In this document: piece by piece, positions 446 to 45,029 of the stretch
Numbering within the stretch: the first letter of the stretch is position 1
Layout: the number at the start of each line of letters is the position of its first letter
NCBI GenBank assembly: GCA_964394685.1
Contig: CAYMYO010000002.1
Location: 34,148 to 98,147, forward strand
Origin: an uncultured Gammaproteobacteria bacterium
GTDB lineage: Bacteria; Patescibacteriota; Microgenomatia; UBA10105; UBA927
Direction: 5' to 3'
DNA: 64,000 bases
The notes under the pieces: generated by a model
Databases searched by the model: none
What the model saw: the letters and a program-made list of their open reading frames with translations, nothing else
What the model was told of the DNA's origin: nothing
Position numbers and translations under genes: made by a program

Positions 446-465
446 CCTGCCTGCCGGCAGGCAGG
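446..465. repeat. GC-rich perfect palindrome CCTGCCTGCCGGCAGGCAGG (type B, intergenic copy)
   Basis: 20-bp perfect inverted repeat in AT-rich intergenic DNA; related copies at 21124, 40906 and 57811. Confidence 0.6.
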
Positions 466-530: not shown

Positions 531-2336
531 ATGTGTATGGAGCAAGAACAATTATTAAATTACGATCAAAGGGCTGCACAAATAGGTCTTCAACAGGCCG
601 CTGAGGTAGGTCCTCATGCATACCAAGCTCGGTTAACTGGAATCAATAGAGATAAACAAAGTGCTCAGAATGAATTAGATAATCCAACAGATGCCTACTG
701 GAGTGGTGAATATCACACTGGTGTTGATGGTCATGGTAATGCTGCACTCGTCACGCCTGAACTCGGAATGATACCAGGAAGAGTTCATCGGGAAAATAGT
801 AATGCCATGTCCGATTCAACGGTAAGAAATGTTGCATATACATTTGATAGAATTCAAGAAGGGATACTTCCACATTCTTCATGGAGAGCGGCGATAGAAC
901 AAGTAAGACAATTTCGGGCCGTTCAACAAGAGGCAATGACACTACAAGATAATGAATCACTTCTTGGATTTGTAATGAATGGATTAACAACAGAGGATGG
1001 TATTGCGCTCATGCGCATGACTCGTCATGGAAATACTATTTCTTATGAAACGCGATTAGTTGGTGGAATGTCGGAAGGAGCTGCGAAAGATCTCCTGGAC
1101 CGGTTTTCTTCAAAAGATGCAGAACGAGTTTCATTAAGAGAAGGGAAAAATAGTCCATTATATTCTGTGATCAGAGGGAATATTTCCGTTGATTTAAAAA
1201 ATAAAAAACAGATTGCTGCCATTGTGCAAGACGTGTTGGATACGCGTCATGAAACAAAGTCTCAAACTGTGAGTCTTGGTACGTGCCGCACGGTCGCAGT
1301 AAACGAAGAAAAAGTTTTTAAAAAACCTATTGCGATAAAACCAATTGCTATCAAACAACAAAAGCAAGAATATGCAATAAAACAAAAACATAACAATCCA
1401 TTTGATGATTTGCCACTAGCTCCACCATACATACACACTGAAAAACAACCTAGTCAAAAACAAATATGGGATGTGTCTGTCAGACCATGGATTATTTTTG
1501 ATACACCATCAAAAAAAGAAGTACCTGTATTTTCTGAGCCGTCAGAAAAGAAAAAACAAAAAATAAATAAACCCGTTATTGACCAACGCATCCATGAAGA
1601 AAAAATACCAGAAGAAGTTACACGAGACATAACAATGACAGAACAATCTTTGGTTACTCAACCAACGATTGTATTTCAAAAAGAACCCGATTTTGTTTTG
1701 CGGGAAGAAAAACAACAAACACAAGAAAAACATGTTGTTCAAATACAGAGAGTGTTGCCTATAACAACATTTATAATAATGACCGATGTTCAAACAGTTC
1801 GTACATACGAGGAAAAAGCAATTGTGATATCGCTTGCAGCGATAAAACCAACATATAGAGAACAAACAATTCAGGAAGATATAATGGTGGCAGAACATAT
1901 TCCTATTAATGTTGAGCACCAACAAGCACAACAAGATGTTGTTATGCAGTCTAAAACAGATTCTTCTTTTGAAGTTGACCAACTCATAATTCAAGATATT
2001 AGTACAATGACAGCGACATTAGAAAAACAGCTTGCGCGGGGAGAATTAGCAAACGCAGTCACAAAATTACTATGGATGGAATTAAACGATCAGAATGAAT
2101 TTGTACCAGTCGAAGAAGTTGAAATATCGCAAGACGCAACGCATACACGGCATAATCTTCTTCATTTTTTACGCAAAGTGGTACAAAAGTACGTTGGAGA
2201 TGATGTTATTAGACAAAGGGTTGTACAACGGATTACTTCAGATAAATGGGATAATGAGATTGAGGAAATAGCAGAATATCTTACTATCCTCAAAACCCAA
2301 CGATTGTATAACCATCTATTTGCGGTAGTCAATTAA
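531..2336 (+). CDS. hypothetical large Gln/Lys/Glu-rich soluble protein
   Basis: 601-aa ORF with no TM helices; low-complexity K/Q/E-rich middle region with a short tandem KPIAIKPIAIK; first gene of a co-directional block. Confidence 0.5.
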   Translation: MCMEQEQLLNYDQRAAQIGLQQAAEVGPHAYQARLTGINRDKQSAQNELDNPTDAYWSGEYHTGVDGHGNAALVTPELGMIPGRVHRENSNAMSDSTVRNVAYTFDRIQEGILPHSSWRAAIEQVRQFRAVQQEAMTLQDNESLLGFVMNGLTTEDGIALMRMTRHGNTISYETRLVGGMSEGAAKDLLDRFSSKDAERVSLREGKNSPLYSVIRGNISVDLKNKKQIAAIVQDVLDTRHETKSQTVSLGTCRTVAVNEEKVFKKPIAIKPIAIKQQKQEYAIKQKHNNPFDDLPLAPPYIHTEKQPSQKQIWDVSVRPWIIFDTPSKKEVPVFSEPSEKKKQKINKPVIDQRIHEEKIPEEVTRDITMTEQSLVTQPTIVFQKEPDFVLREEKQQTQEKHVVQIQRVLPITTFIIMTDVQTVRTYEEKAIVISLAAIKPTYREQTIQEDIMVAEHIPINVEHQQAQQDVVMQSKTDSSFEVDQLIIQDISTMTATLEKQLARGELANAVTKLLWMELNDQNEFVPVEEVEISQDATHTRHNLLHFLRKVVQKYVGDDVIRQRVVQRITSDKWDNEIEEIAEYLTILKTQRLYNHLFAVVN

Positions 2337-2355
2337 ACACAGCCGTTTTTGTGAT

Positions 2356-2760
2356 ATGATTAATGCTATGAATAACCTGCCTGATGCGAGTGGGAAATCG
2401 ACTATTCCAACACCGACCGGAGCTATTGGAATCGGAAAAGAAGCAGAAGGTGTTTCAATTTCTGATTCCGAACAGGGGTTACACGCCGCTGGAGCTGAAA
2501 TTGAACTTCCGAAAGAAATATCAGCTATTGGGGTAACACAGCAACCGACTGTTATCTCAATCCCTCCGCCTGTCAGTCAACTGGGGGTGAAACCAACAGG
2601 ATTAAATATTCCTATCCAAACAAGTCCATCTGTCGCAATTCCCTTGTCTGATAGTGAACTAGCCCAAGGGCTTCATATAAGTGTTATTAATTCGTTTCGG
2701 TGGCTCGCAGAATGGTGCAAAAAACAACTGATGATTTTTGGAATAAAGAGTAAAGTATGA
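2356..2760 (+). CDS. hypothetical protein
   Basis: 134-aa ORF whose stop overlaps the start of the next gene (ATGA), suggesting translational coupling. Confidence 0.4.
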   Translation: MINAMNNLPDASGKSTIPTPTGAIGIGKEAEGVSISDSEQGLHAAGAEIELPKEISAIGVTQQPTVISIPPPVSQLGVKPTGLNIPIQTSPSVAIPLSDSELAQGLHISVINSFRWLAEWCKKQLMIFGIKSKV

Positions 2761-5105
2761 CAGACCAATTCGCTGATCTTACATATAAGTTAGAAATGTT
2801 TGGAATAAGTTTGTTGATTGTGCTTATTTGTTTGAGTGTCGGTATTGGACTTTTGTATGTCGCTTTTTTGTTATGGAAGTATCGAAACAGAGAAAAACGT
2901 TCACTTTCCTATGTACTTTTACAAATTGCAGTTCCACGGGAAAATGAAATTAAAATCGATGCAGCTGAGCAGATGTTTGTCAGTCTCTATGGACTCTATA
3001 ACAAAAAATGGTGGGCGTTTTTAAAACCACAAGATCATATTGCATTTGAGATTGTGGCTCGTCGTGAAGATATCCGTTTTTATGTCTCGGTTCCGAGAAA
3101 TCTCATGGATTTAGTGGAAAAACAAATCCATGGAGCGTATCCCGGAGCGGATATTAAAGAAATAGAGGAATATTCCATTTTTACAAAAGAAGGGAAAGTT
3201 GCCTTTGTTCCTCTGGTTCTTAAGTATTCAAATTATTTTCCCATTCGGACATACAAAGATCTTCCGACTGATTCATTATCATCAATTACTTCGGTGTTAG
3301 CTAAAATGCAGGAAGGGGAAGGAGCAGTCATCCAAATTCTTATTCAACCGGCAAATGATAGGTGGCGAACAAATGGTCATTCGTTTATCTCAAAAATTAA
3401 AAAAGATGAAGCAAATCCGGAAAAGGCAAATTTTAAAGTGGATCAAAAAACACTTGAGTCGATTAATCAAAAAGTTCAGAAAACAGGATTTAACACCGTT
3501 GTTCGAATTGTCGTAACATCAACCACGAAAGAGCAAGCAGAGATGCATTTGAAAAATATTCTTGCGTCATTTGATCAGTTTTCTTCGGATAATAATGAAT
3601 TCCGGGAAATCCGCTTCTTCTTAAAATATGTGTTTATGATCGATTTTATTTATCGGTATTTTCCCGTTATTAATCTTCCTTTTTATAAACAATCGAGCGT
3701 ACTAAACAGTGACGAACTTGCAACACTCTTTCATTTGCCAAATAAAACAGTTGAAACACCGCATATCTTTTGGCTCAATGCCAAGCGCGCTCCCGCCCCC
3801 ATGCTCATACCGGAATCAGGACTTTTCCTAGGTCTTTCAAAATATCGAGGAGTAGAGCGGCCGATATACATTGGCGATGATGATAGAAGAAGACACATGT
3901 ATGTGATCGGAAAAACCGGTACAGGAAAGTCACAATTATTAGAAGAACTTGTGATGCAGGATATAAACGCAGGACGTGGGGTAGCTGTTATTGATCCTCA
4001 CGGAGATTTGATCACCGGGATTATGTCTCGGATGCCTGTCGCTCGCGCTGAGGATGTGATCTATTTTGACCCATCAGATACGGAACGTCCCATGGGGATA
4101 AATATGCTTGAGGCGCACACAGAAGAACAGAAGCATTTTGTAGTGACCTCCATTGTCGGACTTATGTATAAACTCTATGATCCGATGAAAACCGGTATTA
4201 TTGGTCCTAGGTTTGAACACGCGATTCGAAACGCCATGCTAACTGTTATGTGTGAACCGGGAAATACGTTTGTGGAAGTGGTAAGAATTCTTACTGACGC
4301 TGCGTTTGTTCAGGAGCTCTTACCTAAAGTATCTGACCCAATCATACGAAGGTATTGGACGGATCAAATAGCTCAAACAGCAGATTTTCATAAGTCAGAG
4401 GTGTTGGATTACATCGTTTCAAAATTTGGCCGATTTGTCACGAATAAACTCATGCGTAATATTATTGGACAATCAAAATCTTCGTTTGATTTTCGTCATG
4501 TGATGGATGAAGGAAAAATACTCCTTGTGAATCTTGCAAAAGGAAAATTAGGCGAGGAAAACAGCAATTTCTTGGGCCTTATTCTTGTTCCCAGAATTCT
4601 CATTGCTGCCATGAGTAGGCAGGAGATGCCGGAAGCAGAGCGCCGTGATTTTTATTTGTACGTTGACGAATTTCAGAATTTTGCTACTCCTGATTTTGCG
4701 CAAATATTGTCAGAAGCCCGGAAATACAGACTCAATTTGACTGTCGCAAACCAATTCATCGGACAAATGGAAGAGGAAGTGAAAAATGCGGTTTTTGGAA
4801 ACGTTGGATCTTTAATCGCGTTTCGTGTTGGAGTGACTGATGCAAATTATCTTCAGCACGAATTCCAACCGACATTTTCAGAAACTGATCTTATCAATAT
4901 CGATAAATTTAATGCATATATCAAAACAATTGTGCATAATGAACCGGTTAAACCATTTTCCATTGATTTAACAAAAGATATGAAAAAGATCATTGCGCTT
5001 CAAAATCCAAAGATAGCTGAAGCAATCATCCAACTATCAAGACTCAAATATGGCAGGTCGAAAGAATTAGTAGAGGCGGAAGTATCCCAGCGCGCACGTT
5101 TATAA
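2757..5105 (+). CDS. membrane-anchored FtsK/HerA/TraG-superfamily P-loop ATPase (TraG/VirD4 type IV coupling protein-like)
   Basis: N-terminal TM segment; Walker A VIGKTGTGKSQ followed by VIDPHGDL (DPxGE-like); Walker B LYVDEFQNF; SEARKYRLNLTVANQ arginine-finger region typical of TraG/VirD4/HerA. Confidence 0.5.
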   Translation: MTDQFADLTYKLEMFGISLLIVLICLSVGIGLLYVAFLLWKYRNREKRSLSYVLLQIAVPRENEIKIDAAEQMFVSLYGLYNKKWWAFLKPQDHIAFEIVARREDIRFYVSVPRNLMDLVEKQIHGAYPGADIKEIEEYSIFTKEGKVAFVPLVLKYSNYFPIRTYKDLPTDSLSSITSVLAKMQEGEGAVIQILIQPANDRWRTNGHSFISKIKKDEANPEKANFKVDQKTLESINQKVQKTGFNTVVRIVVTSTTKEQAEMHLKNILASFDQFSSDNNEFREIRFFLKYVFMIDFIYRYFPVINLPFYKQSSVLNSDELATLFHLPNKTVETPHIFWLNAKRAPAPMLIPESGLFLGLSKYRGVERPIYIGDDDRRRHMYVIGKTGTGKSQLLEELVMQDINAGRGVAVIDPHGDLITGIMSRMPVARAEDVIYFDPSDTERPMGINMLEAHTEEQKHFVVTSIVGLMYKLYDPMKTGIIGPRFEHAIRNAMLTVMCEPGNTFVEVVRILTDAAFVQELLPKVSDPIIRRYWTDQIAQTADFHKSEVLDYIVSKFGRFVTNKLMRNIIGQSKSSFDFRHVMDEGKILLVNLAKGKLGEENSNFLGLILVPRILIAAMSRQEMPEAERRDFYLYVDEFQNFATPDFAQILSEARKYRLNLTVANQFIGQMEEEVKNAVFGNVGSLIAFRVGVTDANYLQHEFQPTFSETDLINIDKFNAYIKTIVHNEPVKPFSIDLTKDMKKIIALQNPKIAEAIIQLSRLKYGRSKELVEAEVSQRARL

Positions 5106-5112
5106 AAAATTT

Positions 5113-6519
5113 ATGGACCAAACAGAAGATCCTCTCAGTATAGTCCCCGTTAAAAAACACGAGAAAGTGGTATATATTTTTAATCTCTCTGAAGATGTCT
5201 GGCCGTTTATTTGTGCCATGTCCGATACGCATGAGCGTCAATTTGAGATTGATTGGAATGCCAATCTTGCGGAACGTGATCTTATCTCAATGTCCGAAGA
5301 GAATGAAGCGATATTTATCACTCCTCGTCCAATTACAGACGGTTTCATGTTGTATTACCAAAAAGTATTCGGTACGAAACATATGACCGTCCTTGTCCCA
5401 AATACGCATACCGGAGAAATTTGTGAAGATATCATTCGAGATCCAGAGATCATAGAACAATTAGTCAACGCTTCCAATTTTGTAAAGAAACTTACTCTAA
5501 TAAGCTACACAACCAGTCCGCAGTTGTTACATCTGGTAAACGTTCTATCAGTTCGCGGGATTACTGTGTATACACCAGAGTCTCCGGAAGTAACCAGCGC
5601 TTGGACAGTAAACTTTTTTGGGAGTAAATCCGGCATCAGGCAGCTTGCCCAAAAAAGTGGAACGCTTGAGCCGGATTTTAAAGTAGCTGATGGGCTCATC
5701 TGCGCATCAATATACGATGCCGCAATGATAGCGGCAAATAAATACATCAAAGAGGATGGGGTAGTGATAAAAACCAACAAAGGACATTCAGGGGCTGGAG
5801 TACTCATTTTCCGTCCGGGAGATCTTCCAAAAGAATATAAAGCGTGTGAACTGGCAATCCATAACAAATTGCAAAAAGACAGCTATTGGGAGAAATTTCC
5901 AATTGTTATTGAAGATTTACTCAATGTCAATTCTGCAATTGGTGGGGGATTTCCAAATGTTGAGTTTAAAATAACAAAAAGCGGAAAAATCGAGTTTCTT
6001 TATTACTGTGCTATGCGGGTGGATAAAAACGGTGTTTATAAAGGACAAGAAATGCATGAATCAGTTCTTCCAGAACGTATTGCCGCACGCGTTATCGATA
6101 CAGGATTTTTTATCGGCGAACAATATGCGGCATCTGGATATCGGGGGTATTTTGATGTTGACTATGTTGCAGCCAAAAATGGGGAAATTTATGTGACAGA
6201 ATCTAATGCCAGGCGAACCGGTGGAACCCATATGTATAAAGCGGCACAAGAATTAATTGGCAAAGACTTTATGACCGATTCCTATACCCTTTCCAATAAT
6301 GATTATGAGTTGCCTCATGGAATAAAACCTTCATTTGAAAAAGTTATTGAAATACTTGCTCCGGTACTCTTTAACAGTAAAACAAAAGAAGGGGTCGTAC
6401 TTGCCTCATCAAATCTGTTAAAACAGAGCAAATTTGCCTATATCATCTTCGGAAAAAGCGAAAAACGCTCCCTTGAAATTGAAGCCTCCATGGAACAGCT
6501 TCTCACCAAGCTTCAGTAA
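5113..6519 (+). CDS. ATP-grasp domain enzyme (carboxylate-amine ligase-like)
   Basis: KTNKGHSGAGVLIF glycine-rich ATP-binding loop and YVTESNARRTGG C-terminal ATP-grasp motif. Confidence 0.5.
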   Translation: MDQTEDPLSIVPVKKHEKVVYIFNLSEDVWPFICAMSDTHERQFEIDWNANLAERDLISMSEENEAIFITPRPITDGFMLYYQKVFGTKHMTVLVPNTHTGEICEDIIRDPEIIEQLVNASNFVKKLTLISYTTSPQLLHLVNVLSVRGITVYTPESPEVTSAWTVNFFGSKSGIRQLAQKSGTLEPDFKVADGLICASIYDAAMIAANKYIKEDGVVIKTNKGHSGAGVLIFRPGDLPKEYKACELAIHNKLQKDSYWEKFPIVIEDLLNVNSAIGGGFPNVEFKITKSGKIEFLYYCAMRVDKNGVYKGQEMHESVLPERIAARVIDTGFFIGEQYAASGYRGYFDVDYVAAKNGEIYVTESNARRTGGTHMYKAAQELIGKDFMTDSYTLSNNDYELPHGIKPSFEKVIEILAPVLFNSKTKEGVVLASSNLLKQSKFAYIIFGKSEKRSLEIEASMEQLLTKLQ

Positions 6520-6551: not shown

Positions 6552-6623
6552 GCGCCTGTAGCTCACCGGTAGAGCACCACTCTTATAAAGTGGGGGTACC
6601 TGGCTCGACACCAGGCAGGCGCA
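6552..6623 (+). tRNA. tRNA-Ile with anticodon UAU (reads AUA); no encoded CCA
   Basis: Hand-folded cloverleaf: acceptor GCGCCTG/CAGGCGC (7 bp), D arm GCTC-ACCGGTA-GAGC, anticodon stem CCACT/AGTGG with loop CTTATAA (U33, anticodon TAT at 6584-6586, A37), 5-nt variable loop, T arm CCTGG-CTCGACA-CCAGG, discriminator A. Confidence 0.65.
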
Positions 6624-6673
6624 CAAAAATAAAATAGATTAGATTACCGTATCTAACAAAGTAAAATAATACT

Positions 6674-7546
6674 ATGAGTGAATATAAAGAAACATTATTT
6701 GGTGCTTCTGCACGAGTTTCATTTGATTTAAGAAATAACATTGCATATTGGCAACCACGTGATGCATTTTCATCAGCAGATTTAGCAAGAAAAGTAAGAT
6801 TGACAAAGCAATTTAACCAAATAATAACACAAGCTCAGGTACATCATATATATCCATTACATATTATGGAAGCCACTTCAAGCAAAGTAATTACGGGGCT
6901 TGTAAGAGGTGTCGATGTAGGTTTTTCTCGAAGATATGAGGAAATTGCTGATTTTTTATTAGTTAGGTCACCTGAAGCGCGACTGAATTCGCTCATAGCG
7001 TATTTGCGAGCAATAGATGCTTTAAATCAGCGAGGTTTAATATTTAAGGATCATAAACCTGATTCAATTATTTACCCATACCAAACTCCTGATGGTCCTG
7101 ACGGAGGAATTAGTGTTATTGATGTTGATGGTATGATAGTATGTAGTTCTCCAGTATTAGCTTGGAAAATAGACCGAACAATTCTAACTCCTCAACCAAC
7201 TAACACATTTGATTTGGAAATGTTTTTTACGAAGGGACTAACCGTAGAAACTATTGAACGAAATTTTGGATCTTTATCTGAAGGTGTTGGAAAGTTACCT
7301 TTTGACAAGCTCATTCCCGTAGGAGTGGCGTTAACTCTACAGCGCGATTTTCCTTATAGTAATAGTGCTGCAGAAGTAGCTGAAAAATTAGAAGGGTATC
7401 GAGATGGCAGCTATCAACCCCCATTTCATTCGGATGACCCTTTGCACAATATGTCAACAGCAGATGCTTACAGAGTGGATATGCGTGAATCCTTTGAAGC
7501 TGGAATTGATGTCGCAAAAGGTCTGTTAGATATTTATCAGAAATGA
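6674..7546 (+). CDS. hypothetical protein, possibly atypical protein-kinase-like fold
   Basis: 290-aa ORF; LIFKDHKPDSIIY resembles a kinase catalytic loop (HxDxKPxN-like) and VIDVDG a DFG-like motif; weak. Confidence 0.4.
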   Translation: MSEYKETLFGASARVSFDLRNNIAYWQPRDAFSSADLARKVRLTKQFNQIITQAQVHHIYPLHIMEATSSKVITGLVRGVDVGFSRRYEEIADFLLVRSPEARLNSLIAYLRAIDALNQRGLIFKDHKPDSIIYPYQTPDGPDGGISVIDVDGMIVCSSPVLAWKIDRTILTPQPTNTFDLEMFFTKGLTVETIERNFGSLSEGVGKLPFDKLIPVGVALTLQRDFPYSNSAAEVAEKLEGYRDGSYQPPFHSDDPLHNMSTADAYRVDMRESFEAGIDVAKGLLDIYQK

Positions 7547-7562
7547 GTGAGCAGATAAATTT

Positions 7563-7596
7563 GAGGTGCTTGGCTCGACGCCATGCAGGCACACAA
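7563..7596 (+). repeat. degenerate direct repeat of the 3' half of the tRNA at 6552-6623 (att-like)
   Basis: TGGCTCGACgCCAtGCAGGCaCACAA matches tRNA 6601-6627 (TGGCTCGACaCCAgGCAGGCgCACAA) at 24 of 27 positions. Confidence 0.55.
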
Positions 7597-7613
7597 CATT
7601 GAAAAAAGGGAAA

Positions 7614-7976
7614 TTAGGCTTTCTGAAGGATTATCTTCTGAAGAGGGAAATTAATTATCAATTCATACTTTGCCAGTAAAGCCGTTCCTGCCAGCGCTTC
7701 TGTCCCAGCTGTAAGCGTTGCGGGAACTGTTTCTTGTTCTCCATCAAGCTCAACTTTTACGGAGAATACCAATTCTTGACTTATTCTCCCATCGGCATAC
7801 TCTACTGGGATAATGGCGGTAAGCTCAATGCCCAAGGTAACTGCAATGTTAATTGGTAAAGAAAGATATCCGTCGAAACCCGTGTCTAAGATTGCCTCTA
7901 GTAAATTGTTTTGCTTTGCCCCGCCCACTGCCAGCTTTATTTTGGGATGATTTCGGTCATCGAAGAATGTTTCCAT
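7614..7976 (-). CDS. retropepsin-like (clan AA) aspartic protease
   Basis: ILDTGFDGYLSLP carries the DTG active-site motif in a retropepsin-like context; 120 aa. Confidence 0.6.
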   Translation of the reverse strand: METFFDDRNHPKIKLAVGGAKQNNLLEAILDTGFDGYLSLPINIAVTLGIELTAIIPVEYADGRISQELVFSVKVELDGEQETVPATLTAGTEALAGTALLAKYELIINFPLQKIILQKA

Positions 7977-8253
7977 AAGATAAAGGCTGATGATATCCGG
8001 AGAAAGTTACTGCCGAGGGGAAACCAACTTTCATTAAATAAAAGATTTTGGCCGGAAAACGTTTTTTGGCTTTTTCAATGGCTTCGACTTGGGTTTGTCC
8101 AAAAAAATACTTTCCTGACTCTACTTCGATAGCAATAAAACTGCCCAGATATTTTTTTTCCATCTTTTTGCTTATTTTTTGGTAAACTTTCTCGCCCCTG
8201 TGGGCAATTTCTGCTGGGTACACTGTTGGGAGAGAGGTTAAGGGTTTATTCAT
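7957..8253 (-). CDS. hypothetical small protein co-transcribed with the retropepsin-like protease
   Basis: 98-aa ORF overlapping the downstream protease gene by 20 nt on the same strand. Confidence 0.45.
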   Translation of the reverse strand: MNKPLTSLPTVYPAEIAHRGEKVYQKISKKMEKKYLGSFIAIEVESGKYFFGQTQVEAIEKAKKRFPAKIFYLMKVGFPSAVTFSGYHQPLSYGNILR

Positions 8254-40623: not shown

Positions 40624-41685
40624 ATGAACCCGAAAAAATATTCACGGCTTCAGCTTGTTGTTATCATGATTCTTTTTTTTGTAAGCATTTTTTTGAGTAT
40701 CAAGACGTACCGATATATCCAAGCAGTTTCAACGCAAACAGGAATAACTCCACGTATACTCACTCAGCTTATTTTTGATGGAGCAGATTCTTTAAAATCT
40801 TCGGACGGTCGTATCAATATATTACTCCTTGGCATATCGGGAGGGACGCATGAGGGACCGGATTTGACGGATACAATGATCGTCGCTTCTGTTTCGAAAA
40901 AAAATCCTGCCTTGCCGGCAGGCAGGCCCTCAATATCTCTTCTTTCTATTCCTCGTGACATTTGGTCAGAAACATTGAAAGATAAGATTAACAGCGCATA
41001 TCACTATGGAGAAGAAAAAAGAAAAGGAGGAGGAAAAGTACTGGCGAAAGCAATTGTTGAAGATGTGACCGGACTTGTCATTCATTATGTCATTGTTGTC
41101 GATTTTTCTCGATTTGAGAATCTTATTGATATAGTAGGTGGAGTAGATATTGTTGTTCCAAAAGCATTTATCGACACCGAATATCCCATAGCAGGTAAAG
41201 AGAATGATGAATGCGGAGGGGACATCACTTTTGCATGTCGGTATGAAACAGTACAATTTCAAGCCGGATTCCAGCATATGAATGGAAGTATTGCGCTGAA
41301 ATACGTACGCAGCCGTCACGCAGAAGGGGATGAGGGAACAGATTTTGCACGAGGAAATCGTCAACAAGATGTCATCGTTGCTTTAAAAGAAAAGATTATG
41401 CGCAGTAAACCATGGCTTCATCCAAACACATCATTGAAACTACTACAAATTGCTGATATAGCAACAGATACTGATATGACCATTGGTGAGCAGCTCACTA
41501 TGGGAAAATATCTTCTCAAAGTAAAATCACCGGCAATTTCTAGAATTTCAATTGAACCGCTTCTTATGAACCCACCATCTTGGATGTATGGAAGATATGT
41601 GCTTGTTCCCGAAAAAGATTATGAAGCGATCCACGATTTTATAAAATTAAGCCTAACACAAGAAGAAGAACGCTTCCGACAGTAA
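40624..41685 (+). CDS. LytR-CpsA-Psr (LCP) family cell-envelope phosphotransferase
   Basis: N-terminal TM, then LLLGISGGTHEGPDLTDTMIV...SIPRDIW...LKYVRSRH are LCP signatures; contains the in-frame type B palindrome (PALPAGRP). Confidence 0.7.
   Translation: MNPKKYSRLQLVVIMILFFVSIFLSIKTYRYIQAVSTQTGITPRILTQLIFDGADSLKSSDGRINILLLGISGGTHEGPDLTDTMIVASVSKKNPALPAGRPSISLLSIPRDIWSETLKDKINSAYHYGEEKRKGGGKVLAKAIVEDVTGLVIHYVIVVDFSRFENLIDIVGGVDIVVPKAFIDTEYPIAGKENDECGGDITFACRYETVQFQAGFQHMNGSIALKYVRSRHAEGDEGTDFARGNRQQDVIVALKEKIMRSKPWLHPNTSLKLLQIADIATDTDMTIGEQLTMGKYLLKVKSPAISRISIEPLLMNPPSWMYGRYVLVPEKDYEAIHDFIKLSLTQEEERFRQ
40906..40926. repeat. GC-rich palindrome type B inside the lcp gene
   Basis: cctgccttgccggcaggcagg translated as PALPAGR. 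Confidence 0.5.
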
Positions 41686-42820
41686 TAATGATTGCTTTTA
41701 TGTCGAAAAATCCAGAAACTGGTACTTTTGGTGTAGGTCGTTGAGTCTCTGTTACAATAGGTGCTTCGGCAATGACCCGTTCACGAGGTGGTTGTTGCAC
41801 ATAGACAACGCGTTCCGTTGGCAGCGCAGTTGCCTCAGCAATCGGACATTCACAATTTGTTCGATCCGGACACGCAGCTTTTCTGCATCGTTTTACACCG
41901 AGTGATGTAACACACGAAAGGCCTGATTCACAATTGCTGTCAAAGTCACATGACGCGTCACATCTGCCCGGAGCACTTGTATTTACAATCGTTGGTGTTG
42001 CTGTTGGGGCTGATGTATTGGTCGGAGCAGGAGTATTGGTTGCGATTGGTACGGGAGTATTTGTATTACCAGGTTGATTTGTTGGTGTTAGGGTAGGTGT
42101 ATTTCCTCCCCCGCCGCCAGCTGGAGTTGGAATCGTAGCTGGACAGGTACCAGAAGTACTCCAAACACAATAATTTTCGTTTATAGTACAAGCATTTTGG
42201 CTTGCACCAGTGCATGTATTAATAGAGTAGGTGGTATTATATTTATGGCAACATTTTTTTGTACTGCTTACAGGAGCAGTCGTTGGCGTTGCTGTTGCTG
42301 TAGGACAAGCGTCTCTACAATCCTCCGGTGCAAAATTTTTGCAAATACAGTCGTTGTAACAATTTCCTGTATTACAACTTGGCGCTGCTGGACGAGGAGT
42401 AGGAGTATTTGTTACGGAAACAGATATTTTGCAACATTTTCTTGGCGTAGTACAATTTGTACATGAACCATTGGGTATAATCGTTCCACCGGCCTCAGTA
42501 CACTCTATTGCTGCAGGCACACAAAATATTTCTGACACTATAGCTGCTCTGCTTCTTAGCTCAGTAATTTGCTGGTATTTTTGAGAACCGTAATAAATTG
42601 CAACAGGAAGAGTTAGGATGAAAAACAAAAGCATGCCAATGAGCATGCCTTTTCCGCCTTTTTTCTTTGGTGGTTTTACTACCGGTGGGGGAGGTTCTTG
42701 TTTTTCTTCCTTCGGTGCAATAACGATTGTTTCCGGTTCAGTGGGCGGTAATGGAACCGCCTCTAATTTTTTTGAAGCTTCATCAACTATCTGCTGTGGA
42801 TTTGTTGGTTCGTCTGCCAT
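41639..42820 (-). CDS. Cys/Thr/Pro-rich cell-surface protein with N- and C-terminal TM segments
   Basis: 393 aa: cytoplasmic N-terminus, TM (MLIGMLLFFILTL), then about 40 Cys among T/P/N-rich low-complexity sequence with a GGGGG run, then a C-terminal TM; by eye GC content is higher than the local average; its 3' end overlaps the convergent lcp gene by about 47 nt. Confidence 0.5.
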   Translation of the reverse strand: MADEPTNPQQIVDEASKKLEAVPLPPTEPETIVIAPKEEKQEPPPPVVKPPKKKGGKGMLIGMLLFFILTLPVAIYYGSQKYQQITELRSRAAIVSEIFCVPAAIECTEAGGTIIPNGSCTNCTTPRKCCKISVSVTNTPTPRPAAPSCNTGNCYNDCICKNFAPEDCRDACPTATATPTTAPVSSTKKCCHKYNTTYSINTCTGASQNACTINENYCVWSTSGTCPATIPTPAGGGGGNTPTLTPTNQPGNTNTPVPIATNTPAPTNTSAPTATPTIVNTSAPGRCDASCDFDSNCESGLSCVTSLGVKRCRKAACPDRTNCECPIAEATALPTERVVYVQQPPRERVIAEAPIVTETQRPTPKVPVSGFFDIKAIIITVGSVLLLVLGLIL

Positions 42821-42829
42821 ATATCCAGA

Positions 42830-44164
42830 CTAGTGCATACGAGATGTAATAGTCAATGCCCCCCCACTAATAAATAATATACAACCAAGTAGTATTAACA
42901 TTAATGTTGGTACTATGGACCCACTCGTTGGTATCTCATCAGCGATTAATTCTCCTGTTGGAGTCGCTTCTCCGGAAGGCGTCGCAGTGGGAATCACTTC
43001 CGTTGTTGCTGATGGTGTTGCATCTCCAAGCACCTGAGATCCGCTTTTGAGAACTGTAAATGTATGTGTGATCGCAACAGGTTTACTTTTTGCGTCTTGC
43101 GTTGTTATCGTGACACTTTGTTTTCCTGGGGCGAGTGCTTGTTTTGGGGTATATCTCCAAACTCCATCTTTTCCAACAACTGTCGATCCAATCGCCGGCT
43201 CTGTAATTCCAATAGTAATAGTCACTGTTTTTCCGGGAATTCCAACGCCACTGATAAGAGGTTTTGTTGAACTAAGTGTTGCTCCTTGAATTGGAGCGGT
43301 GAGTGCAACTCCGCCAGTTAATTTATCAGATGTTACCCCTAAAACAACTTGTTTTGGTTTTGTTGTGGGCGCCACCTGTTTTTGTGCAAGTGCAGCAGGA
43401 GTGGTTTTCTTTGCGTCCCGTCCCCGGAAATCATATGTTTCTCCCAAAATAATATCAGGAACCGGTGCATCATTTAACGTATCAGTGGTTACCCGGGAAA
43501 CACTAGATCCAAGTTGGATAACAAGTGTTTCATTGGTGCGTTCTTGTGAAGTGATATACGCTGCGCCATCTTGAGTGCGAAGAAGTGACAATGGAATAAT
43601 CCACGATCCAGAAGTTCGGACAAGCGTTGATAGTGTTTGACTTCCTTCGAGACTTAAATATACGAGTGCCCCTTCAGCGGGAAGACTGCTTATCGTTTTA
43701 ACTGACCCAAACGCAGGATCAAGAAGTGGAGCGTCACTGGTTAAAGTTGGAAGAGTTGTAACAGAAAAACTTTTTTTGTCTTCTTTAGGATTTATAGGAT
43801 ACTTCTTTCCGTTAGAAAGTACAGTTGCATCATATGTCGTTGACGGAACAAGTGTTCTCACTGTTACTGAATGGGTAAGATATTTTCCCATTTTTCCCGT
43901 GATGTCCCGTTCATCAAAACTGGAATATTTTTTTCCACTAGCTGTTGTGACAAGAAGTGTGCCTGAGGTAAGTTCATCTGTTTGCCAGGTAAAGGTAAAT
44001 GATGTATCAGTGAGATTTGTTACCATGATACTTTTTGGTTCTATGGAAAGTGTTGCTTTTGTCTCTTGTCTTGTAATTCCTTCAAACAAAAATCCAATAC
44101 CACCCACAGTAATAAGAAGGAGCATGATTGCAAGAAGTGTTGGTATTCGTTTTGTTTTCTGCAT
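42830..44164 (-). CDS. membrane-anchored surface protein with fibronectin type III-like and Ig-like domains
   Basis: N-terminal TM, then LTDTSFTFTWQTDELTSGTLLV...TTYDATV (FN3-like), then beta-rich domains and a C-terminal TM. Confidence 0.5.
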   Translation of the reverse strand: MQKTKRIPTLLAIMLLLITVGGIGFLFEGITRQETKATLSIEPKSIMVTNLTDTSFTFTWQTDELTSGTLLVTTASGKKYSSFDERDITGKMGKYLTHSVTVRTLVPSTTYDATVLSNGKKYPINPKEDKKSFSVTTLPTLTSDAPLLDPAFGSVKTISSLPAEGALVYLSLEGSQTLSTLVRTSGSWIIPLSLLRTQDGAAYITSQERTNETLVIQLGSSVSRVTTDTLNDAPVPDIILGETYDFRGRDAKKTTPAALAQKQVAPTTKPKQVVLGVTSDKLTGGVALTAPIQGATLSSTKPLISGVGIPGKTVTITIGITEPAIGSTVVGKDGVWRYTPKQALAPGKQSVTITTQDAKSKPVAITHTFTVLKSGSQVLGDATPSATTEVIPTATPSGEATPTGELIADEIPTSGSIVPTLMLILLGCILFISGGALTITSRMH

Positions 44165-44378: not shown

Positions 44379-45023
44379 TTAATAACTTTGATAATACGCA
44401 GTTAATTTTAATTGTAACCGAATTTCATTTAGTCCTGCTTGTGGTAACCCACTTTTGCCTGGAGAAAATGAGATTGAGTCAATAGTAATAATGCGCTGCA
44501 TAGCTAACAGTCCACTCATAAAAGACGCAAGCACATTATATGGTCCATCAATAGATACATTGATTGGAATAGCGGTGTGTTTAACAATAGAAGATGGAAG
44601 AGCGGCACTCGGAGTAGCGACAAGGATAGGGACTGAAGCTATTTGAATACCGCTCAGTGACGCTTGTGACGTTTCGGCTAACTTTTTCAGCTGTCGCGCG
44701 ATATCAACTGCCTGAGGATTCATTGGTATGGTATAAGAGATGACTTCTAACTGAGGTTGAATATTCTCAAGTATTGCCTGTGCTTCTATAAGAGCATTAA
44801 TTTTTTCATCCATTTTTGTATTGACCTCTTTTTTATCTACAATTTCTCTCTGTAAATAGAGAATGGTTTGGATCGTAGGTTTAATTGCAAACCACCCAAA
44901 GAGAGCAACAGTTAAAAAGAAAAAGATAACAGTAGAATACCGTTTTGTTTTTGGTTTATTGAGTATTGGCTCAAGTGATCGGTAATATTTTCGATATTCC
45001 TGTGGTATAGAAAATTTATCCAT
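44379..45023 (-). CDS. pilO: type IV pilus assembly protein PilO
   Basis: N-terminal TM, coiled coil, C-terminal GPYNVLASFMSGLLAMQRIITIDSISF; located downstream of pilN. Confidence 0.55.
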   Translation of the reverse strand: MDKFSIPQEYRKYYRSLEPILNKPKTKRYSTVIFFFLTVALFGWFAIKPTIQTILYLQREIVDKKEVNTKMDEKINALIEAQAILENIQPQLEVISYTIPMNPQAVDIARQLKKLAETSQASLSGIQIASVPILVATPSAALPSSIVKHTAIPINVSIDGPYNVLASFMSGLLAMQRIITIDSISFSPGKSGLPQAGLNEIRLQLKLTAYYQSY

Positions 45024-45029
45024 ACGATA

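What the first reader, a model, noticed from the sequence alone, without database searches (positions are those of the whole stretch)
531..6519. Four-gene block with a membrane-anchored TraG/VirD4-like ATPase, an ATP-grasp enzyme and two unknown proteins, with no other T4SS genes in view
The 782-aa protein has a TM anchor, a ~330-aa unknown domain, then Walker A/B and the SEARKYRLNLTVANQ region typical of TraG/VirD4/HerA-FtsK ATPases. It is translationally coupled to an upstream 134-aa ORF. It is preceded by a 601-aa Q/K/E-rich soluble protein and followed by an ATP-grasp ligase-like enzyme (468 aa). No relaxase, VirB4 or pilin-like genes are visible in this window, and the block ends at the tRNA that bears an integration scar. 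It could be cargo or a remnant of a conjugative or DNA-uptake element, or an uncharacterised ATPase-driven system.
Basis: partly seen in the sequence, partly recalled or inferred. Interest (0 to 1): 0.6.

Follow-up and report, generated by a model that had tools for sequence, protein, structure and literature searches.

The report
Core CPR coupling-type ATPase gene pair
This is not a leftover of a mobile element: it is a chromosomal gene pair (a small protein plus a membrane-anchored, conjugation-type ATPase) found across the ultra-small 'CPR' bacteria, whose probable counterpart is essential in the one species tested, while the other two genes are only local neighbours.

Summary
The four ORFs exist as described and are tightly packed. 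ORF2 and the ATPase overlap by ATGA.

The window is housekeeping chromosome of a Microgenomates/Gottesmanbacteria-type CPR bacterium, with no T4SS parts.

The 782-aa protein has three parts:
- one TM helix;
- a 300-aa domain (Pfam DUF8128) whose predicted fold matches only the N-terminal domain of VirB4/TrwK;
- a motor domain that by sequence is coupling-protein (TrwB/TraD)-like, not VirB4-like.

The family is very large (6,323 50%-clusters at E<=1e-30), occurs in all CPR classes sampled, and is about 78% identical across Gottesmanbacteria.

Only the small upstream ORF travels with it, as lineage-specific families and once as a fusion. The 601-aa protein and the PGM1-like ATP-grasp ligase are adjacent only in close relatives.

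Eleven-gene synteny identifies Southlakia SEML1_0141/0142 as the counterpart pair. Both are essential in published Tn-seq but were not discussed there.

Distant full-length homologues sit in the coupling-protein position of Bacillus plasmid conjugation clusters, and next to Replic_Relax nickases in Bacillus phages.

Best reading: the coupling-type ATPase that serves the chromosomal CPR type IV secretion system from a separate locus. This function is inferred, not shown.

It is a new member of a known, uncharacterised kind.

The parts
2356..2760 (+). ORF2, 134 aa. Small soluble partner protein with a low-complexity N-terminal part and a conserved C-terminal motif (LPLSDxExxxGL...SFRWLAEWCKK). 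Its stop overlaps the ATPase start (ATGA).
   Evidence: Searches show the ORF and the overlap. jackhmmer finds this family at position -1 of the ATPase in 17 loci (L001 and L002 are the same sequence), all in the upper, Microgenomates-rich part of the list. It is fused in frame to the ATPase in L036. Other CPR classes carry different small -1 families at the same position. The Southlakia -1 gene SEML1_0141 is essential. No Pfam, NCBIfam, PADLOC or PHROG hit.
2757..5105 (+). 782-aa membrane-anchored ATPase: TM helix, DUF8128 domain, coupling-protein-like motor. This is the conserved core of the finding.
   Evidence: More than 7,900 homologues were scored. Members are about 78% identical across Gottesmanbacteria-labelled and related genomes. 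There are 6,323 50%-cluster representatives at E<=1e-30.
2799..2891 (+). Single N-terminal TM helix (about residues 15-45), followed by a basic stretch. The inferred topology is N-out/C-in, which puts both domains in the cytoplasm.
   Evidence: Hydropathy maximum of 2.79 at residues 21-39. The AF2 model has a helix over residues 2-49. The topology follows from the positive-inside rule and is an inference.
2892..3812 (+). N-terminal alpha/beta domain (residues 46-352) = Pfam DUF8128, with a VirB4/TrwK N-terminal-domain-like fold. It ends in the invariant ELATLFH(L/F)PNK linker motif.
   Evidence: PF26449 is precomputed on the 100%-identical P0001 and on homologues. The domain model has pLDDT 90.1 and pTM 0.89. 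The top 14 Foldseek PDB hits are all TrwK/VirB4 chains (E 3e-8 to 6e-5, TMq 0.45-0.53), and the next hits are generic folds at E>7e-4. There is no sequence-level similarity to VirB4 N-terminal domains. E320, H326 and P328 are invariant.
3813..5102 (+). C-terminal P-loop motor (residues 353-782). It has Walker A GKTGTGKS, Walker B LYVDEFQN, the SEARKYRLNLTVANQ motif and an all-alpha insertion (about residues 456-625).
   Evidence: Invariant columns are G385, G388, G390, K391, D637, E638, E653, R655, K656, Q666 and Q670. The best PDB sequence match is TrwB. Foldseek against TrwB gives TMt about 0.6. A CPR C-terminal-domain HMM scores TrwB at 34.7 bits and three VirB4s at about 0 bits.
531..2336 (+). 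ORF1, 601 aa. Soluble, fast-evolving Q/K/E-rich protein. It is a co-oriented neighbour, not part of the conserved module.
   Evidence: No family hit. Only the C-terminal ~150 aa align with the L001 protein at the same position (31% identity). L003, L004 and L020 carry large proteins there with no detectable similarity to ORF1.
5113..6519 (+). 468-aa PGM1-like ATP-grasp ligase (peptide or amino-acid ligase type). Its adjacency to the ATPase is lineage-specific.
   Evidence: PDB 8ynd 'ATP-grasp peptide ligase' matches at E=3e-9 over residues 63-434, PGM1 at 9e-8 and BesA at 2e-4. NCBIfam hits are PRK06524, BesA and LdmS. 821 homologues were found. It is next to the ATPase only in L001/L002/L004. 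In L083 and L084/85 it is next to an arginase-family gene, and in L086 the context is unrelated.
6552..6624 (+). tRNA-Ile(TAT), the downstream boundary. It is conserved just upstream of idi/NUDIX in related genomes and is a hotspot for small insertions.
446..465 (+). Perfect GC-rich hairpin (CCTGCCTGCCGGCAGGCAGG) in the 98-nt gap upstream of ORF1. It may mark the boundary between transcription units.
   Evidence: The region folds at -36.9 kcal/mol with z = -1.95. There is no T-run, so a terminator function is not shown.

Best explanation
What it is (well supported): ORF2 (2356-2760) and the 782-aa protein (2757-5105) form a vertically inherited, chromosomal two-gene module found in every CPR (Patescibacteria) class sampled.

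The large protein belongs to the VirB4/VirD4 superfamily of type IV secretion ATPases. It has:
- one N-terminal membrane helix;
- a cytoplasmic DUF8128 domain with a VirB4-N-terminal-domain-like fold;
- a motor domain that by sequence is a type IV coupling protein (TrwB/TraD/VirD4-like), with every catalytic motif invariant.

How it most likely works (inferred): it assembles as a membrane-anchored ring ATPase at the cytoplasmic face of the membrane. There it acts as the substrate-receptor and energising 'coupling' ATPase of the chromosomal, monoderm-type T4SS of CPR bacteria. That T4SS cluster, usually near dnaA, lacks its own coupling protein.

The small upstream protein would bind the ATPase through its conserved C-terminal amphipathic helix and act as an adaptor or activator, analogous to TrwA-TrwB or PcfB-PcfC.

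ORF1 and the ATP-grasp ligase are neighbours in this lineage only and are not needed for this mechanism.
For: Identity and conservation:
- The ATPase is 82% identical to its L001 counterpart, within the same gene order DUF6580 - large ORF - small ORF - ATPase - ATP-grasp - idi - TsaD - MFS.
- 80 loci from GTDB species representatives carry titles that span Microgenomates groups, Dojkabacteria, WWE3, Saccharibacteria, Berkelbacteria, Parcubacteria groups and Peribacteria.
- 6,323 50%-cluster representatives reach E<=1e-30.
- The catalytic residues are invariant.

Fold and sequence class:
- The full-length model has pLDDT 86.6.
- TrwK/VirB4 aligns over both domains (E 6e-16), and TrwB aligns over the motor (TMt ~0.6).
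- The N-terminal domain alone hits only VirB4 chains.
- Pfam T4CP families pass their cut-offs.
- The C-terminal-domain HMM prefers TrwB (34.7 bits) over VirB4s (~0 bits).

Partner protein:
- 54 of 75 assessable loci have a same-strand 60-300-aa ORF at -1. In 43 of them the gap is -30 to +60 nt, and 39 fall into four lineage-specific families.
- L036 carries an in-frame fusion.
- The Saccharibacterial -1 family has at least 4,793 clusters.

Link to T4SS function:
- Full-length homologues occupy the coupling-protein position of a Bacillus plasmid conjugation cluster. In pBM69 the order is homologue - Replic_Relax - TcpC - AAA_10 VirB4.
- In Bacillus phage CP-51 the homologue sits directly next to a Replic_Relax nickase gene. 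In phage G it sits next to a VirB-like ATPase (gp155), with a gene annotated 'replication initiation by nicking' about 5 kb upstream.
- CPR T4SS clusters are MPF_FATA-like. 5,713 VirD4-like homologues occur in 2,918 genomes, and only 148 are near virB4 (PMC12102498).
- Wang et al. found no coupling protein in the essential Southlakia T4SS cluster (PMC10633639).
- Eleven-gene synteny between L087/L088 and SEML1_0135-0145 identifies SEML1_0142 as the DUF8128 ATPase and SEML1_0141 as its -1 partner.
- Both are essential in Tn-seq: ES/ES/ES and GD/ES/ES.
- The window protein is 38% identical to the L087 protein over residues 18-781.
Against: - No physical or genetic link to the T4SS has been shown.
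- The gene is almost never near virB4 (148 of 5,713), and there are no T4SS genes in this 64-kb window.
- Relaxases are nearly absent from CPR (109 in 3,035 genomes), so the classical DNA-coupling substrate is missing.
- The VirB4-like N-terminal domain is atypical for the well-studied T4CPs. This assignment rests on predicted structure only (TM ~0.5, no sequence signal), and Foldseek did not report target coordinates.
- NCBIfam equivalog cut-offs for TraD, VirD4 and VirB4 are far from met.
- The four -1 families are not detectably homologous to each other. 'One conserved partner' is therefore a positional argument, and tight same-strand upstream genes are common in compact genomes.
- Orthology to SEML1_0142 rests on synteny and best-hit logic. 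I never held the Southlakia sequence itself, and a non-essential paralogue (SEML1_0293) exists.
- I could not examine whether the window's own genome has a T4SS.
Confidence: 0.5

Rival explanations
1. The ATPase and its small partner form a T4SS-independent machine. This would be a stand-alone membrane-anchored translocase or assembly ATPase, moving DNA, protein or envelope components, that works with a channel or partner not yet recognised.
For: - The gene is almost never linked to virB4.
- Its neighbours vary by class and are housekeeping genes: RNR/NrdR, XerC/D-type recombinase and DivIC in Microgenomates; DnaX in Parcubacteria; GyrB/GyrA in Saccharibacteria.
- Some family members carry 600-1,200-aa extra N- or C-terminal extensions.
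- The VirB4-like N-terminal domain suggests it may dock to its own membrane partners.
Against: - No candidate channel gene is conserved next to it in 82 loci.
- The nearest non-CPR contexts examined (one Bacillus plasmid, one haloarchaeal plasmid, two Bacillus phages) are conjugation- or nickase-linked.
- Its essentiality matches that of the T4SS genes in Southlakia.
Confidence: 0.3
2. One reading: the block is cargo or a decayed remnant of a conjugative or integrative element that ends at the tRNA.
For: - The protein has a T4CP-like domain.
- There is a degenerate duplicate of the tRNA 3' half downstream.
- Homologues exist on plasmids and phages.
Against: - GC content shows no discontinuity across the block (0.36-0.41, like the flanks).
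- The gene order is conserved with a related 1.02-Mb contig.
- The ATPase is the most conserved gene of the neighbourhood (82% identity), and all its catalytic residues are invariant.
- It is present in all CPR classes sampled.
- There is no integrase, relaxase or T4SS gene in 64 kb.
- The tRNA repeat brackets ORF290 on the other side of the tRNA.
- Plasmid and phage homologues are only 19-31% identical.
Confidence: 0.03
3. All four genes form one functional system. For example, the ATP-grasp ligase would make or modify a peptide, or ORF1, and the ATPase would export it.
For: - The four genes are tightly spaced on the same strand in this genome.
- The same four-gene order occurs in L001. In L004 the small ORF, ATPase and ATP-grasp recur, but the large upstream ORF shows no detectable similarity to ORF1.
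- L003 has a different (Ddl-type) ATP-grasp at the same position.
Against: - The ATP-grasp is adjacent in only 3 of 82 loci, two of which are the same sequence.
- Homologues at 60-65% identity lie elsewhere, twice beside an arginase-family gene.
- Ddl occurs next to the ATPase only in L003.
- ORF1 homology is limited to one genome.
Confidence: 0.05
4. It is an FtsK-like chromosome-segregation or dimer-resolution translocase of CPR bacteria.
For: - A XerC/D-type recombinase lies within +1 to +4 genes in 17 loci, and DivIC in 9 loci.
- DNA-metabolism genes are nearby in several classes.
Against: - Southlakia has a canonical, essential FtsK with 4TM, alpha, beta and gamma domains (SEML1_0096).
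- There is no PF01580 hit.
- The Walker A to Walker B spacing with an all-alpha insertion is T4CP-like.
- The Xer and DivIC linkage is confined to Microgenomates and Dojkabacteria synteny.
Confidence: 0.04
5. It is a component of an anti-phage defence system (HerA-type or MADS mad8-like ATPase).
For: PADLOC mad8 scores 62 bits over residues 357-692, and there are weak HerA hits.
Against: - No other MADS or HerA-partner genes are nearby.
- It is a universal, vertically inherited, essential core gene, unlike patchy defence islands.
- The hits cover only the shared P-loop domain.
Confidence: 0.02

Closest known systems
[quoted passage not shown] 2023, Cell, Table S1
   Same: It is identified by 11-gene synteny with L087/L088 as the Saccharibacterial DUF8128 ATPase plus its small upstream ORF. 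The table flags it as a core family and as Patescibacteria-enriched. The architecture is the same: TM, N-terminal domain and motor (P-loop at about residues 381-800). The window protein is 38% identical, full length, to the L087 protein.
   Different: It is longer, with a ~200-aa low-complexity C-terminal tail. Its -1 protein belongs to a different sequence family from ORF2. Its essentiality has been measured (ES), whereas nothing is known experimentally for the Gottesmanbacteria gene. The Southlakia sequence itself was not available to me.
Type IV coupling proteins TrwB (R388), TraD and VirD4
   Same: It shares the motor-domain sequence signature (PF02534, PF10412 and PF12696 pass their cut-offs). 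TrwB is the best solved relative (E=6e-6; Foldseek TMt ~0.6). It also shares the all-alpha insertion, the N-terminal membrane anchor, and a small gene immediately upstream (trwA-trwB, pcfB-pcfC).
   Different: It has one TM helix instead of two. It has an extra 300-aa VirB4-N-terminal-domain-like domain between anchor and motor. It is not encoded with a relaxase or T4SS genes. It is chromosomal, universal in a phylum and probably essential. NCBIfam family cut-offs are not reached.
VirB4 / TrwK (R388 cryo-EM structures 7o42, 8rtd)
   Same: Both have a two-domain layout of N-terminal domain plus RecA-like C-terminal domain of about 800 aa. The DUF8128 model matches only VirB4 chains in the PDB. 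Like virB3-virB4, a small gene lies directly upstream and is sometimes fused.
   Different: There is no sequence similarity in either domain (HMM scores ~0 bits; TIGR00929 scores 21.6 against a cut-off of 643). CPR genomes carry a separate bona fide VirB4 (SEML1_0008 in Southlakia) inside the T4SS cluster. ORF2 has no TM segment, unlike VirB3.
DUF87/T4CP-position proteins of monoderm and archaeal plasmids (e.g. Bacillus methanolicus pBM69 WP_003349917) and Bacillus phage proteins (phage G gp156, CP-51 gp91; PHROG 5156)
   Same: They are full-length homologues that include the N-terminal domain (75-92% query coverage; E down to 1e-67 for plasmids and 2e-40 for phage G; PHROG 5156 at 1.7e-95).
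   Different: Identity is only 19-31%. They are encoded on mobile elements, next to Replic_Relax nickases (pBM69, CP-51) or VirB-like/VirB4 ATPases (phage G, pBM69), so they plausibly act in DNA transfer. In haloarchaeal plasmids the N-terminal domain is a separate ORF. The CPR clade is chromosomal and relaxase-free.
PGM1-type ATP-grasp peptide ligases (PDB 3wvq, 8ynd) and BesA/LdmS amino-acid ligases (for ORF 5113-6519)
   Same: The pre-ATP-grasp plus ATP-grasp layout is shared, and 8ynd aligns over residues 63-434.
   Different: Scores are low (39 bits to 8ynd; PF18604 scores 19.3 against a cut-off of 27.5). The substrate is unknown. No biosynthetic cluster surrounds it.

Membership tests
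Type IV coupling protein (VirD4/TrwB/TraD) | P-loop motor with the T4CP sequence signature (Pfam T4SS-DNA_transf, TrwB_AAD_bind, TraG-D_C) | tested here: met
   PF02534 scores 29.8 (cut-off 20.1), PF10412 scores 26.1 (20.5) and PF12696 scores 24.0 (22). The CPR C-terminal-domain HMM scores TrwB at 34.7 bits against ~0 bits for three VirB4s. TrwB is the best PDB sequence hit.
Type IV coupling protein (VirD4/TrwB/TraD) | All-alpha domain inserted in the nucleotide-binding domain, and a TrwB-like fold | tested here: met
   The model has helices over about residues 456-625, between Walker A and Walker B. Foldseek against TrwB gives TMt 0.58-0.66 over about 420 columns.
Type IV coupling protein (VirD4/TrwB/TraD) | N-terminal transmembrane anchor directly preceding the motor | tested here: inconclusive
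   One TM helix is present. However, a 300-aa extra domain separates it from the motor, unlike TrwB or VirD4.
Type IV coupling protein (VirD4/TrwB/TraD) | Encoded with, and working with, a relaxase/Dtr module and a VirB4-containing T4SS | tested here: not met
   There is no relaxase, VirB4, VirB6 or VirB8 in the 64-kb window, nor conserved in 82 related loci. Whether it works in trans with the CPR T4SS cannot be tested with these tools.
Type IV coupling protein (VirD4/TrwB/TraD) | NCBIfam curated family cut-offs (TraD, CD1115 VirD4-like, etc.) | tested here: not met
   TIGR03743 scores 59 against a cut-off of 366. NF045973 scores 36.9 against 250. TIGR03754 scores 41.9 against 648.
VirB4 | VirB4-type N-terminal domain | tested here: inconclusive
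   Fold level: the top 14 PDB hits of the domain model are all TrwK chains (E 3e-8 to 6e-5, TMq ~0.5). Sequence level: no signal (negative bit scores against TrwK, PrgJ and Orf16). Target coordinates of the structural alignment were not reported.
VirB4 | VirB4 sequence signature of the ATPase domain (TIGR00929 / AAA_10 / CagE_TrbE_VirB) | tested here: not met
   TIGR00929 scores 21.6 against a cut-off of 643. There is no AAA_10 or CagE hit. The C-terminal-domain HMM scores ~0 bits against three VirB4s.
Pfam DUF8128 (PF26449)-containing CPR ATPases | PF26449 domain followed by a T4CP-like P-loop domain | tested here: met
   PF26449 is precomputed for the 100%-identical P0001 and for all 120 listed homologues, and for the L001 and L087 genes. 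No PF26449 match was returned by the local Pfam scan at E<=0.01, so I did not reproduce the hit myself.
FtsK/SpoIIIE DNA translocases | FtsK alpha/beta motor (PF01580), gamma domain, 4TM N-terminus | tested here: not met
   There is no PF01580, PF09397 or PF13491 hit. A canonical FtsK exists separately in Southlakia (SEML1_0096).
Integrative element inserted at a tRNA | Element bounded by a tRNA and a direct repeat of its 3' end, carrying an integrase | tested here: not met
   The repeat exists (78% over 50 nt), but it bounds 6625-7604 downstream of the tRNA. No integrase is present. The block lies upstream and is syntenic in L001.
PGM1-like ATP-grasp ligases (ORF 5113-6519) | Pre-ATP-grasp domain plus ATP-grasp catalytic domain homologous to PGM1/8ynd | tested here: inconclusive
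   PDB 8ynd matches at E=3e-9 over residues 63-434, and 3wvq at 9e-8. PF18604 scores only 19.3 against a cut-off of 27.5 locally, but it is precomputed on many homologues. Substrate and activity are not testable here.
MADS / HerA defence ATPases | ATPase encoded with the other system genes in a defence island | tested here: not met
   mad8 scores 62 bits on the P-loop domain only. No partner genes are present, and the gene is in a core-genome context.

The most novel reading that the evidence does not exclude
The DUF8128 ATPase and its small partner are the long-sought missing motor and substrate receptor of the essential CPR type IV secretion system. This would be a hybrid with a VirB4-like docking domain and a coupling-protein motor, descended from monoderm or archaeal plasmid T4CPs and domesticated as a core gene.

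The large, hypervariable proteins encoded just upstream in some lineages (ORF1 here; proteins with no detectable similarity to it in L003, L004 and L020) would be its cargo: effectors delivered to the host cell.
Probability: 0.15. Interest if true: 0.8.

Novelty: new member of a known kind. Interest (0 to 1): 0.4.

Why it matters
CPR/Patescibacteria make up a large share of bacterial diversity and live attached to host cells. Their chromosomal T4SS is essential in the only genetically tractable species, yet it has no recognised coupling protein or substrate.

This locus belongs to a phylum-wide ATPase family that has so far only been counted as 'VirD4-like homologues' and given a DUF number. 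If the orthology inferred here is right, published Tn-seq data already show that the ATPase and its small upstream gene are essential.

That gives a concrete, testable candidate for how the CPR T4SS is powered and how it selects substrates.

For the scan itself, the practical lesson is that an isolated TraG/VirD4-like gene in a CPR genome is a core gene, not a sign of a mobile element.

Tried and rejected
- Mobile-element remnant. Rejected on synteny, conservation, composition and the lack of integrase, relaxase or T4SS genes.
- Four-gene system. Rejected by co-occurrence in 82 loci and by three independent contexts of the ATP-grasp.
- FtsK substitute. I considered this because XerC/D-type recombinase and DivIC genes lie nearby in Microgenomates. 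Rejected because Southlakia has a canonical essential FtsK.
- Common ancestry of the four -1 small-protein families. hhalign found nothing (probabilities ~0.1%).
- Sequence link between DUF8128 and VirB4 N-terminal domains. None found.
- Defence-system reading. Only a domain-level mad8/HerA resemblance.
- DUF5353 check on the Saccharibacterial +1 gene. No Pfam hit. Synteny by size, strand and flanking annotated genes was used instead.
- Look-ups of the window protein and of the identical P0001 in the contig index. Both failed, so the sequence upstream of window position 1 could not be read. L001 served as a proxy.
- Literature search for 'DUF8128'. No papers.
- A first probe for a tRNA scar (24-mer, up to 3 mismatches) missed the degenerate copy. 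The repeat finder found it.

Full report
OBSERVATION

- 531-2336 (601 aa)
- 2356-2760 (134 aa)
- 2757-5105 (782 aa)
- 5113-6519 (468 aa)

They are followed by tRNA-Ile(TAT) at 6552-6624. ORF2's stop and the ATPase start overlap as ATGA. The other gaps are 19 and 7 nt. Of the four proteins, only the ATPase has a hydrophobic segment (residues 21-39, followed by KYRNREKR).

Pfam confirms weak but above-threshold coupling-protein signatures: T4SS-DNA_transf 29.8 bits, TrwB_AAD_bind 26.1, TraG-D_C 24.0 and DUF87 30.8. The closest solved protein by sequence is TrwB. The fourth protein is an ATP-grasp enzyme related to PGM1-type peptide ligases. ORF1 and ORF2 hit nothing in Pfam, NCBIfam, PADLOC or PHROGs.

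CONTEXT

The rest of the window is ordinary chromosome of a CPR bacterium. It encodes GroES/EL, DnaK/DnaJ/GrpE/HrcA, NusA, IF2, PNPase, RNase J, MetRS, MurJ, FemAB, two UvrD-type helicases, TsaD, idi and PilN/PilO. There is no relaxase, VirB4, VirB6, VirB8 or T4SS pilin. GC content is flat across the block.

A related 1.02-Mb contig (L001) has the same gene order: DUF4430 - DUF6580 - large ORF - small ORF - ATPase - ATP-grasp - idi - TsaD - MFS - ... - GroES/EL. Between these two genomes, identity varies sharply by gene:
- ATPase: 82%
- ATP-grasp: 60%
- DUF6580: 51%
- ORF2: 49%
- ORF1: 31%, over its last ~150 residues only

The tRNA does carry a scar: 6585-6634 and 7555-7604 are 78% identical over 50 nt. 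However, the scar brackets ORF290 on the far side of the tRNA. The same tRNA sits before idi in L001, L003 and L004, each with a different small insert. The block is therefore not bounded by an attachment site.

HOW WIDESPREAD THE ATPASE IS

- A word-indexed search scored 7,919 homologues. Even the 120th best hit is still about 77% identical, and those that carry source names are labelled Gottesmanbacteria, Microgenomates or Patescibacteria. All carry PF26449 (DUF8128) in front of the T4CP-type domains.
- An exhaustive search of 50%-identity representatives gave 23,949 hits at E<=1e-3 and 6,323 at E<=1e-30. Some have long extra N- or C-terminal regions.
- A scan of one genome per GTDB species returned the maximum of 80 loci. 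By record title these come from Levy-, Curtiss-, Roizman-, Woese-, Davies- and Shapirobacteria, Dojkabacteria, WWE3, Saccharibacteria, Berkelbacteria, Uhr-, Magasanik-, Falkow-, Staskawicz- and Doudnabacteria, and Peribacteria. Many MAG titles are unreliable.
- In a 19-sequence alignment down to 34% identity, Walker A (G385, G388, G390, K391), Walker B (D637, E638), the SEARKY motif (E653, R655, K656), Q666 and Q670, and a linker motif (E320, H326, P328) are invariant.

This is a core, purifying-selected gene, not a decaying one.

WHAT TRAVELS WITH IT

I called ORFs in all 82 loci, clustered the +/-6 neighbours, and ran phmmer and jackhmmer with the window proteins.

- ATP-grasp: adjacent only in L001/L002 (the same sequence from two sources) and L004.
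- ORF1: recognisable only in L001.
- Three ATP-grasp homologues at 60-65% identity lie elsewhere in other genomes, two of them beside an arginase-family gene.
- A Ddl-type ATP-grasp replaces it in L003 only.

So the 'four-gene block' is a local arrangement.

The recurrent feature is a small same-strand ORF immediately upstream. Of 75 assessable loci, 54 have one, 43 have it within -30 to +60 nt, and 39 fall into four sequence families:
- the ORF2 family (17 loci including the duplicate L002; motif ...LP(L/I)(S/T)..E...GL.....S.RWLAEW...);
- a family found mainly in Parcubacteria-labelled loci (13 loci);
- a family in Saccharibacteria-labelled loci (7 loci here; at least 4,793 clusters in the big database);
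- a fourth family (5 loci).

These families are not detectably homologous to each other. The argument is therefore positional, and the background rate of tight operonic neighbours in CPR genomes is high. In L036 the ORF2-type motif is fused in frame to the ATPase, replacing the TM helix.

STRUCTURE

With a 19-sequence alignment, AlphaFold2 gave a confident model (pLDDT 86.6):
- a long N-terminal helix;
- an alpha/beta domain (about residues 52-330);
- a RecA-type domain with an all-alpha insertion (about residues 456-625).

Foldseek against the PDB ranks TrwK/VirB4 of R388 first (E 6e-16). The ~860-890-column alignments span both domains. TrwB follows on the motor alone (TMt ~0.6), then HerA and Cag-beta.

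The N-terminal domain modelled alone (pLDDT 90.1, pTM 0.89) hits only TrwK chains in its first 14 places (E 3e-8 to 6e-5, TMq 0.45-0.53). After that come only generic ferredoxin-like folds.

At the sequence level the picture is reversed. An HMM of the CPR motor domain scores TrwB at 34.7 bits, the Tn916 FtsK-type T4CP at 12.8, PcfC at 10.7, and three VirB4 proteins at about 0. The N-terminal-domain HMM scores nothing.

The protein is therefore best described as a coupling-protein-type motor carrying a VirB4-N-terminal-domain-like module behind a single membrane anchor.

RELATIVES OUTSIDE CPR

- PHROG 5156 matches at 1.7e-95.
- tblastn finds full-length homologues (19-23% identity) in Bacillus phage G (gp156), 0305phi8-36, and SPO1-like phages such as CP-51 (gp91).
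- In CP-51 the next gene is a Replic_Relax nickase. In phage G the preceding gene is a VirB-like P-loop protein.
- 454 plasmid records match, from Bacillus, Streptomyces, Staphylococcus, Clostridium, haloarchaea and Sulfolobus. In 119 of them coverage is at least 80%.
- On pBM69 the order is homologue - Replic_Relax - ... - TcpC - ... - AAA_10 VirB4. The homologue thus sits in the coupling-protein position of a Gram-positive conjugation cluster.
- In haloarchaeal plasmids the N-terminal domain is a separate upstream ORF.

LITERATURE AND THE SOUTHLAKIA LINK

Quinonero-Coronel et al. 2025 (PMC12102498) report the following:
- 2,474 VirB4 homologues in 2,417 of 3,035 CPR genomes, forming one clade inside MPF_FATA;
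- 5,713 VirD4-like homologues in 2,918 genomes, of which only 148 are near virB4;
- almost no relaxases.

They leave open that the T4CP 'was exapted'. They also state that the Southlakia T4CP homologue is not essential.

Wang et al. 2023 (PMC10633639) state that the essential Southlakia T4SS lacks a recognisable coupling protein. Their Table S1 lists two candidates:
- SEML1_0293: 921 aa, strong PF10412 hit, non-essential.
- SEML1_0142: 1019 aa, 'TraM recognition domain-containing', core and Patescibacteria-enriched, called ES/ES/ES. It had 114 insertions in the input library and 11, 11 and 9 after selection.

SEML1_0142 is preceded at a 12-nt distance by SEML1_0141 (139 aa), called GD/ES/ES, with 9 input insertions and 0 after selection.

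A member of the Saccharibacterial -1 family (P0407) lies in this context: L20 - L35 - IF3 - YifB(506 aa, -) - 119 aa - 137 aa - 943-aa DUF8128 ATPase - 191 aa(-) - 547-aa DUF11/CLIPPER(-) - GyrB. This matches SEML1_0135-0145 gene for gene in order, strand, size and annotation. The window ATPase is 38% identical to that 943-aa protein over residues 18-781.

I therefore infer that SEML1_0142/0141 are the Southlakia counterparts of the window pair. I never held the Southlakia sequences. Neither gene is mentioned in the main text of Wang et al..

Southlakia also has a canonical essential FtsK. This removes the FtsK-substitute idea that the nearby Xer and DivIC genes had suggested.

MECHANISM

Shown:
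- domain make-up;
- conservation of the catalytic residues;
- membrane anchor;
- tight coupling to a small ORF;
- phylum-wide vertical inheritance;
- T4CP-position homologues on plasmids.

Inferred:
- It forms a ring ATPase on the cytoplasmic face of the membrane.
- It serves the CPR chromosomal T4SS from a separate locus, as substrate receptor and energiser.
- The VirB4-like domain docks it to inner-membrane T4SS subunits.
- ORF2's conserved C-terminal helix binds it as an adaptor or activator, by analogy with trwA-trwB and pcfB-pcfC, both visible as abutting or overlapping gene pairs.

The main rival is a T4SS-independent translocase. I give the coupling model about 0.5 and the independent-machine model about 0.3. 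The remaining readings (element remnant, four-gene system, FtsK-like, defence) are each at or below 0.05.

VERDICT

The locus is a new member of a known but uncharacterised kind. Its interest lies in the family rather than in this copy: an apparently essential, CPR-wide hybrid ATPase with a conserved small partner, which is a concrete candidate for the missing motor of the CPR T4SS.

Noticed in passing
window 6585-6634 and 7555-7604 (with ORF 6674-7546 between them): The 3' half of tRNA-Ile(TAT) is duplicated (78% identity over 50 nt) about 970 bp downstream. The repeat brackets a 290-aa ORF with no family hit and no integrase, so this is a small insertion at the tRNA. In L001, L003 and L004 the same tRNA precedes idi but has different small inserts around it (GIY-YIG, Ddl-type ATP-grasp, HTH ORFs).
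   Followed up: partly
window 7614-7976 (-) and 7957-8253 (-): A retropepsin-like aspartyl protease (PADLOC 'protease', 3.7e-6) overlaps a 98-aa ORF of unknown function. This two-gene cassette lies between the tRNA scar and idi and is absent from L001.
   Followed up: no
window 446-465: A perfect 20-nt GC-rich palindrome (CCTGCCTGCCGGCAGGCAGG), inside a longer stem, lies in the gap between the DUF6580 gene and ORF1. There is no T-run, so it could be a terminator-like or regulatory hairpin.
   Followed up: partly
window 5113-6519; L083 6100-8455; L084 832-3129: The PGM1-like ATP-grasp ligase family (821 homologues, mostly CPR) sits next to an arginase/agmatinase-family gene in two of three more distant genomes. 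This hints at an arginine-, ornithine- or agmatine-related ligation, unrelated to the ATPase.
   Followed up: partly
L091 5791-9352 (Bacillus phage CP-51 gp91-gp90); L092 3327-7469 (phage G gp155-gp156): Large Bacillus phages encode full-length homologues of the DUF8128-type ATPase (PHROG 5156). In CP-51 the gene sits next to a Replic_Relax nickase, and in phage G next to a VirB-like ATPase. This looks like a conjugation-like DNA-processing pair inside lytic phage genomes, of unknown role.
   Followed up: partly
L094 8788-9918 and 9908-12931 (Halorussus limi plasmid): In haloarchaeal plasmids the region homologous to the DUF8128 N-terminal domain is a separate 376-aa ORF immediately upstream of the T4CP-like ATPase. 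There is a second 'TraM recognition' ATPase and a pilin gene nearby.
   Followed up: no
L036 9521-12262: A single 913-aa ORF joins an ORF2-type C-terminal motif (..VRWLSSFVERHVKKL) directly to the DUF8128 domain, with the TM helix missing. It is either a natural fusion or deletion variant, or an assembly artefact.
   Followed up: partly
PMC10633639 Table S1 compared with PMC12102498: The 2025 census states that the Southlakia T4CP homologue is non-essential, which fits SEML1_0293. The second, DUF8128-type paralogue SEML1_0142 and its small upstream gene SEML1_0141 are called essential in the 2023 Tn-seq table and are not discussed in the main text of that paper.
   Followed up: yes
L005, L007, L020 and others (+1 to +4 of the ATPase): In 17 loci (Microgenomates- and Dojkabacteria-labelled) a XerC/D-type tyrosine recombinase lies just downstream on the opposite strand, and in 9 loci a DivIC/FtsB-like gene does. 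In 12 Parcubacteria-labelled loci DnaX lies at +1 to +5 (mostly +2). In Saccharibacteria GyrB/GyrA follow. DNA-metabolism genes thus recur nearby, which may be synteny only.
   Followed up: partly
window 44379-45584 (-): PilO- and PilN-like genes of a type IV pilus assembly system lie next to two large proteins with Ig-like domains (41639-44164). This is the only envelope-machine component in the window.
   Followed up: no
window 2757-5105, residues 357-692: The PADLOC model mad8 (methylation-associated defence system) matches the motor domain at 62 bits. That defence ATPase therefore appears to be a relative of coupling-protein-type motors.
   Followed up: no
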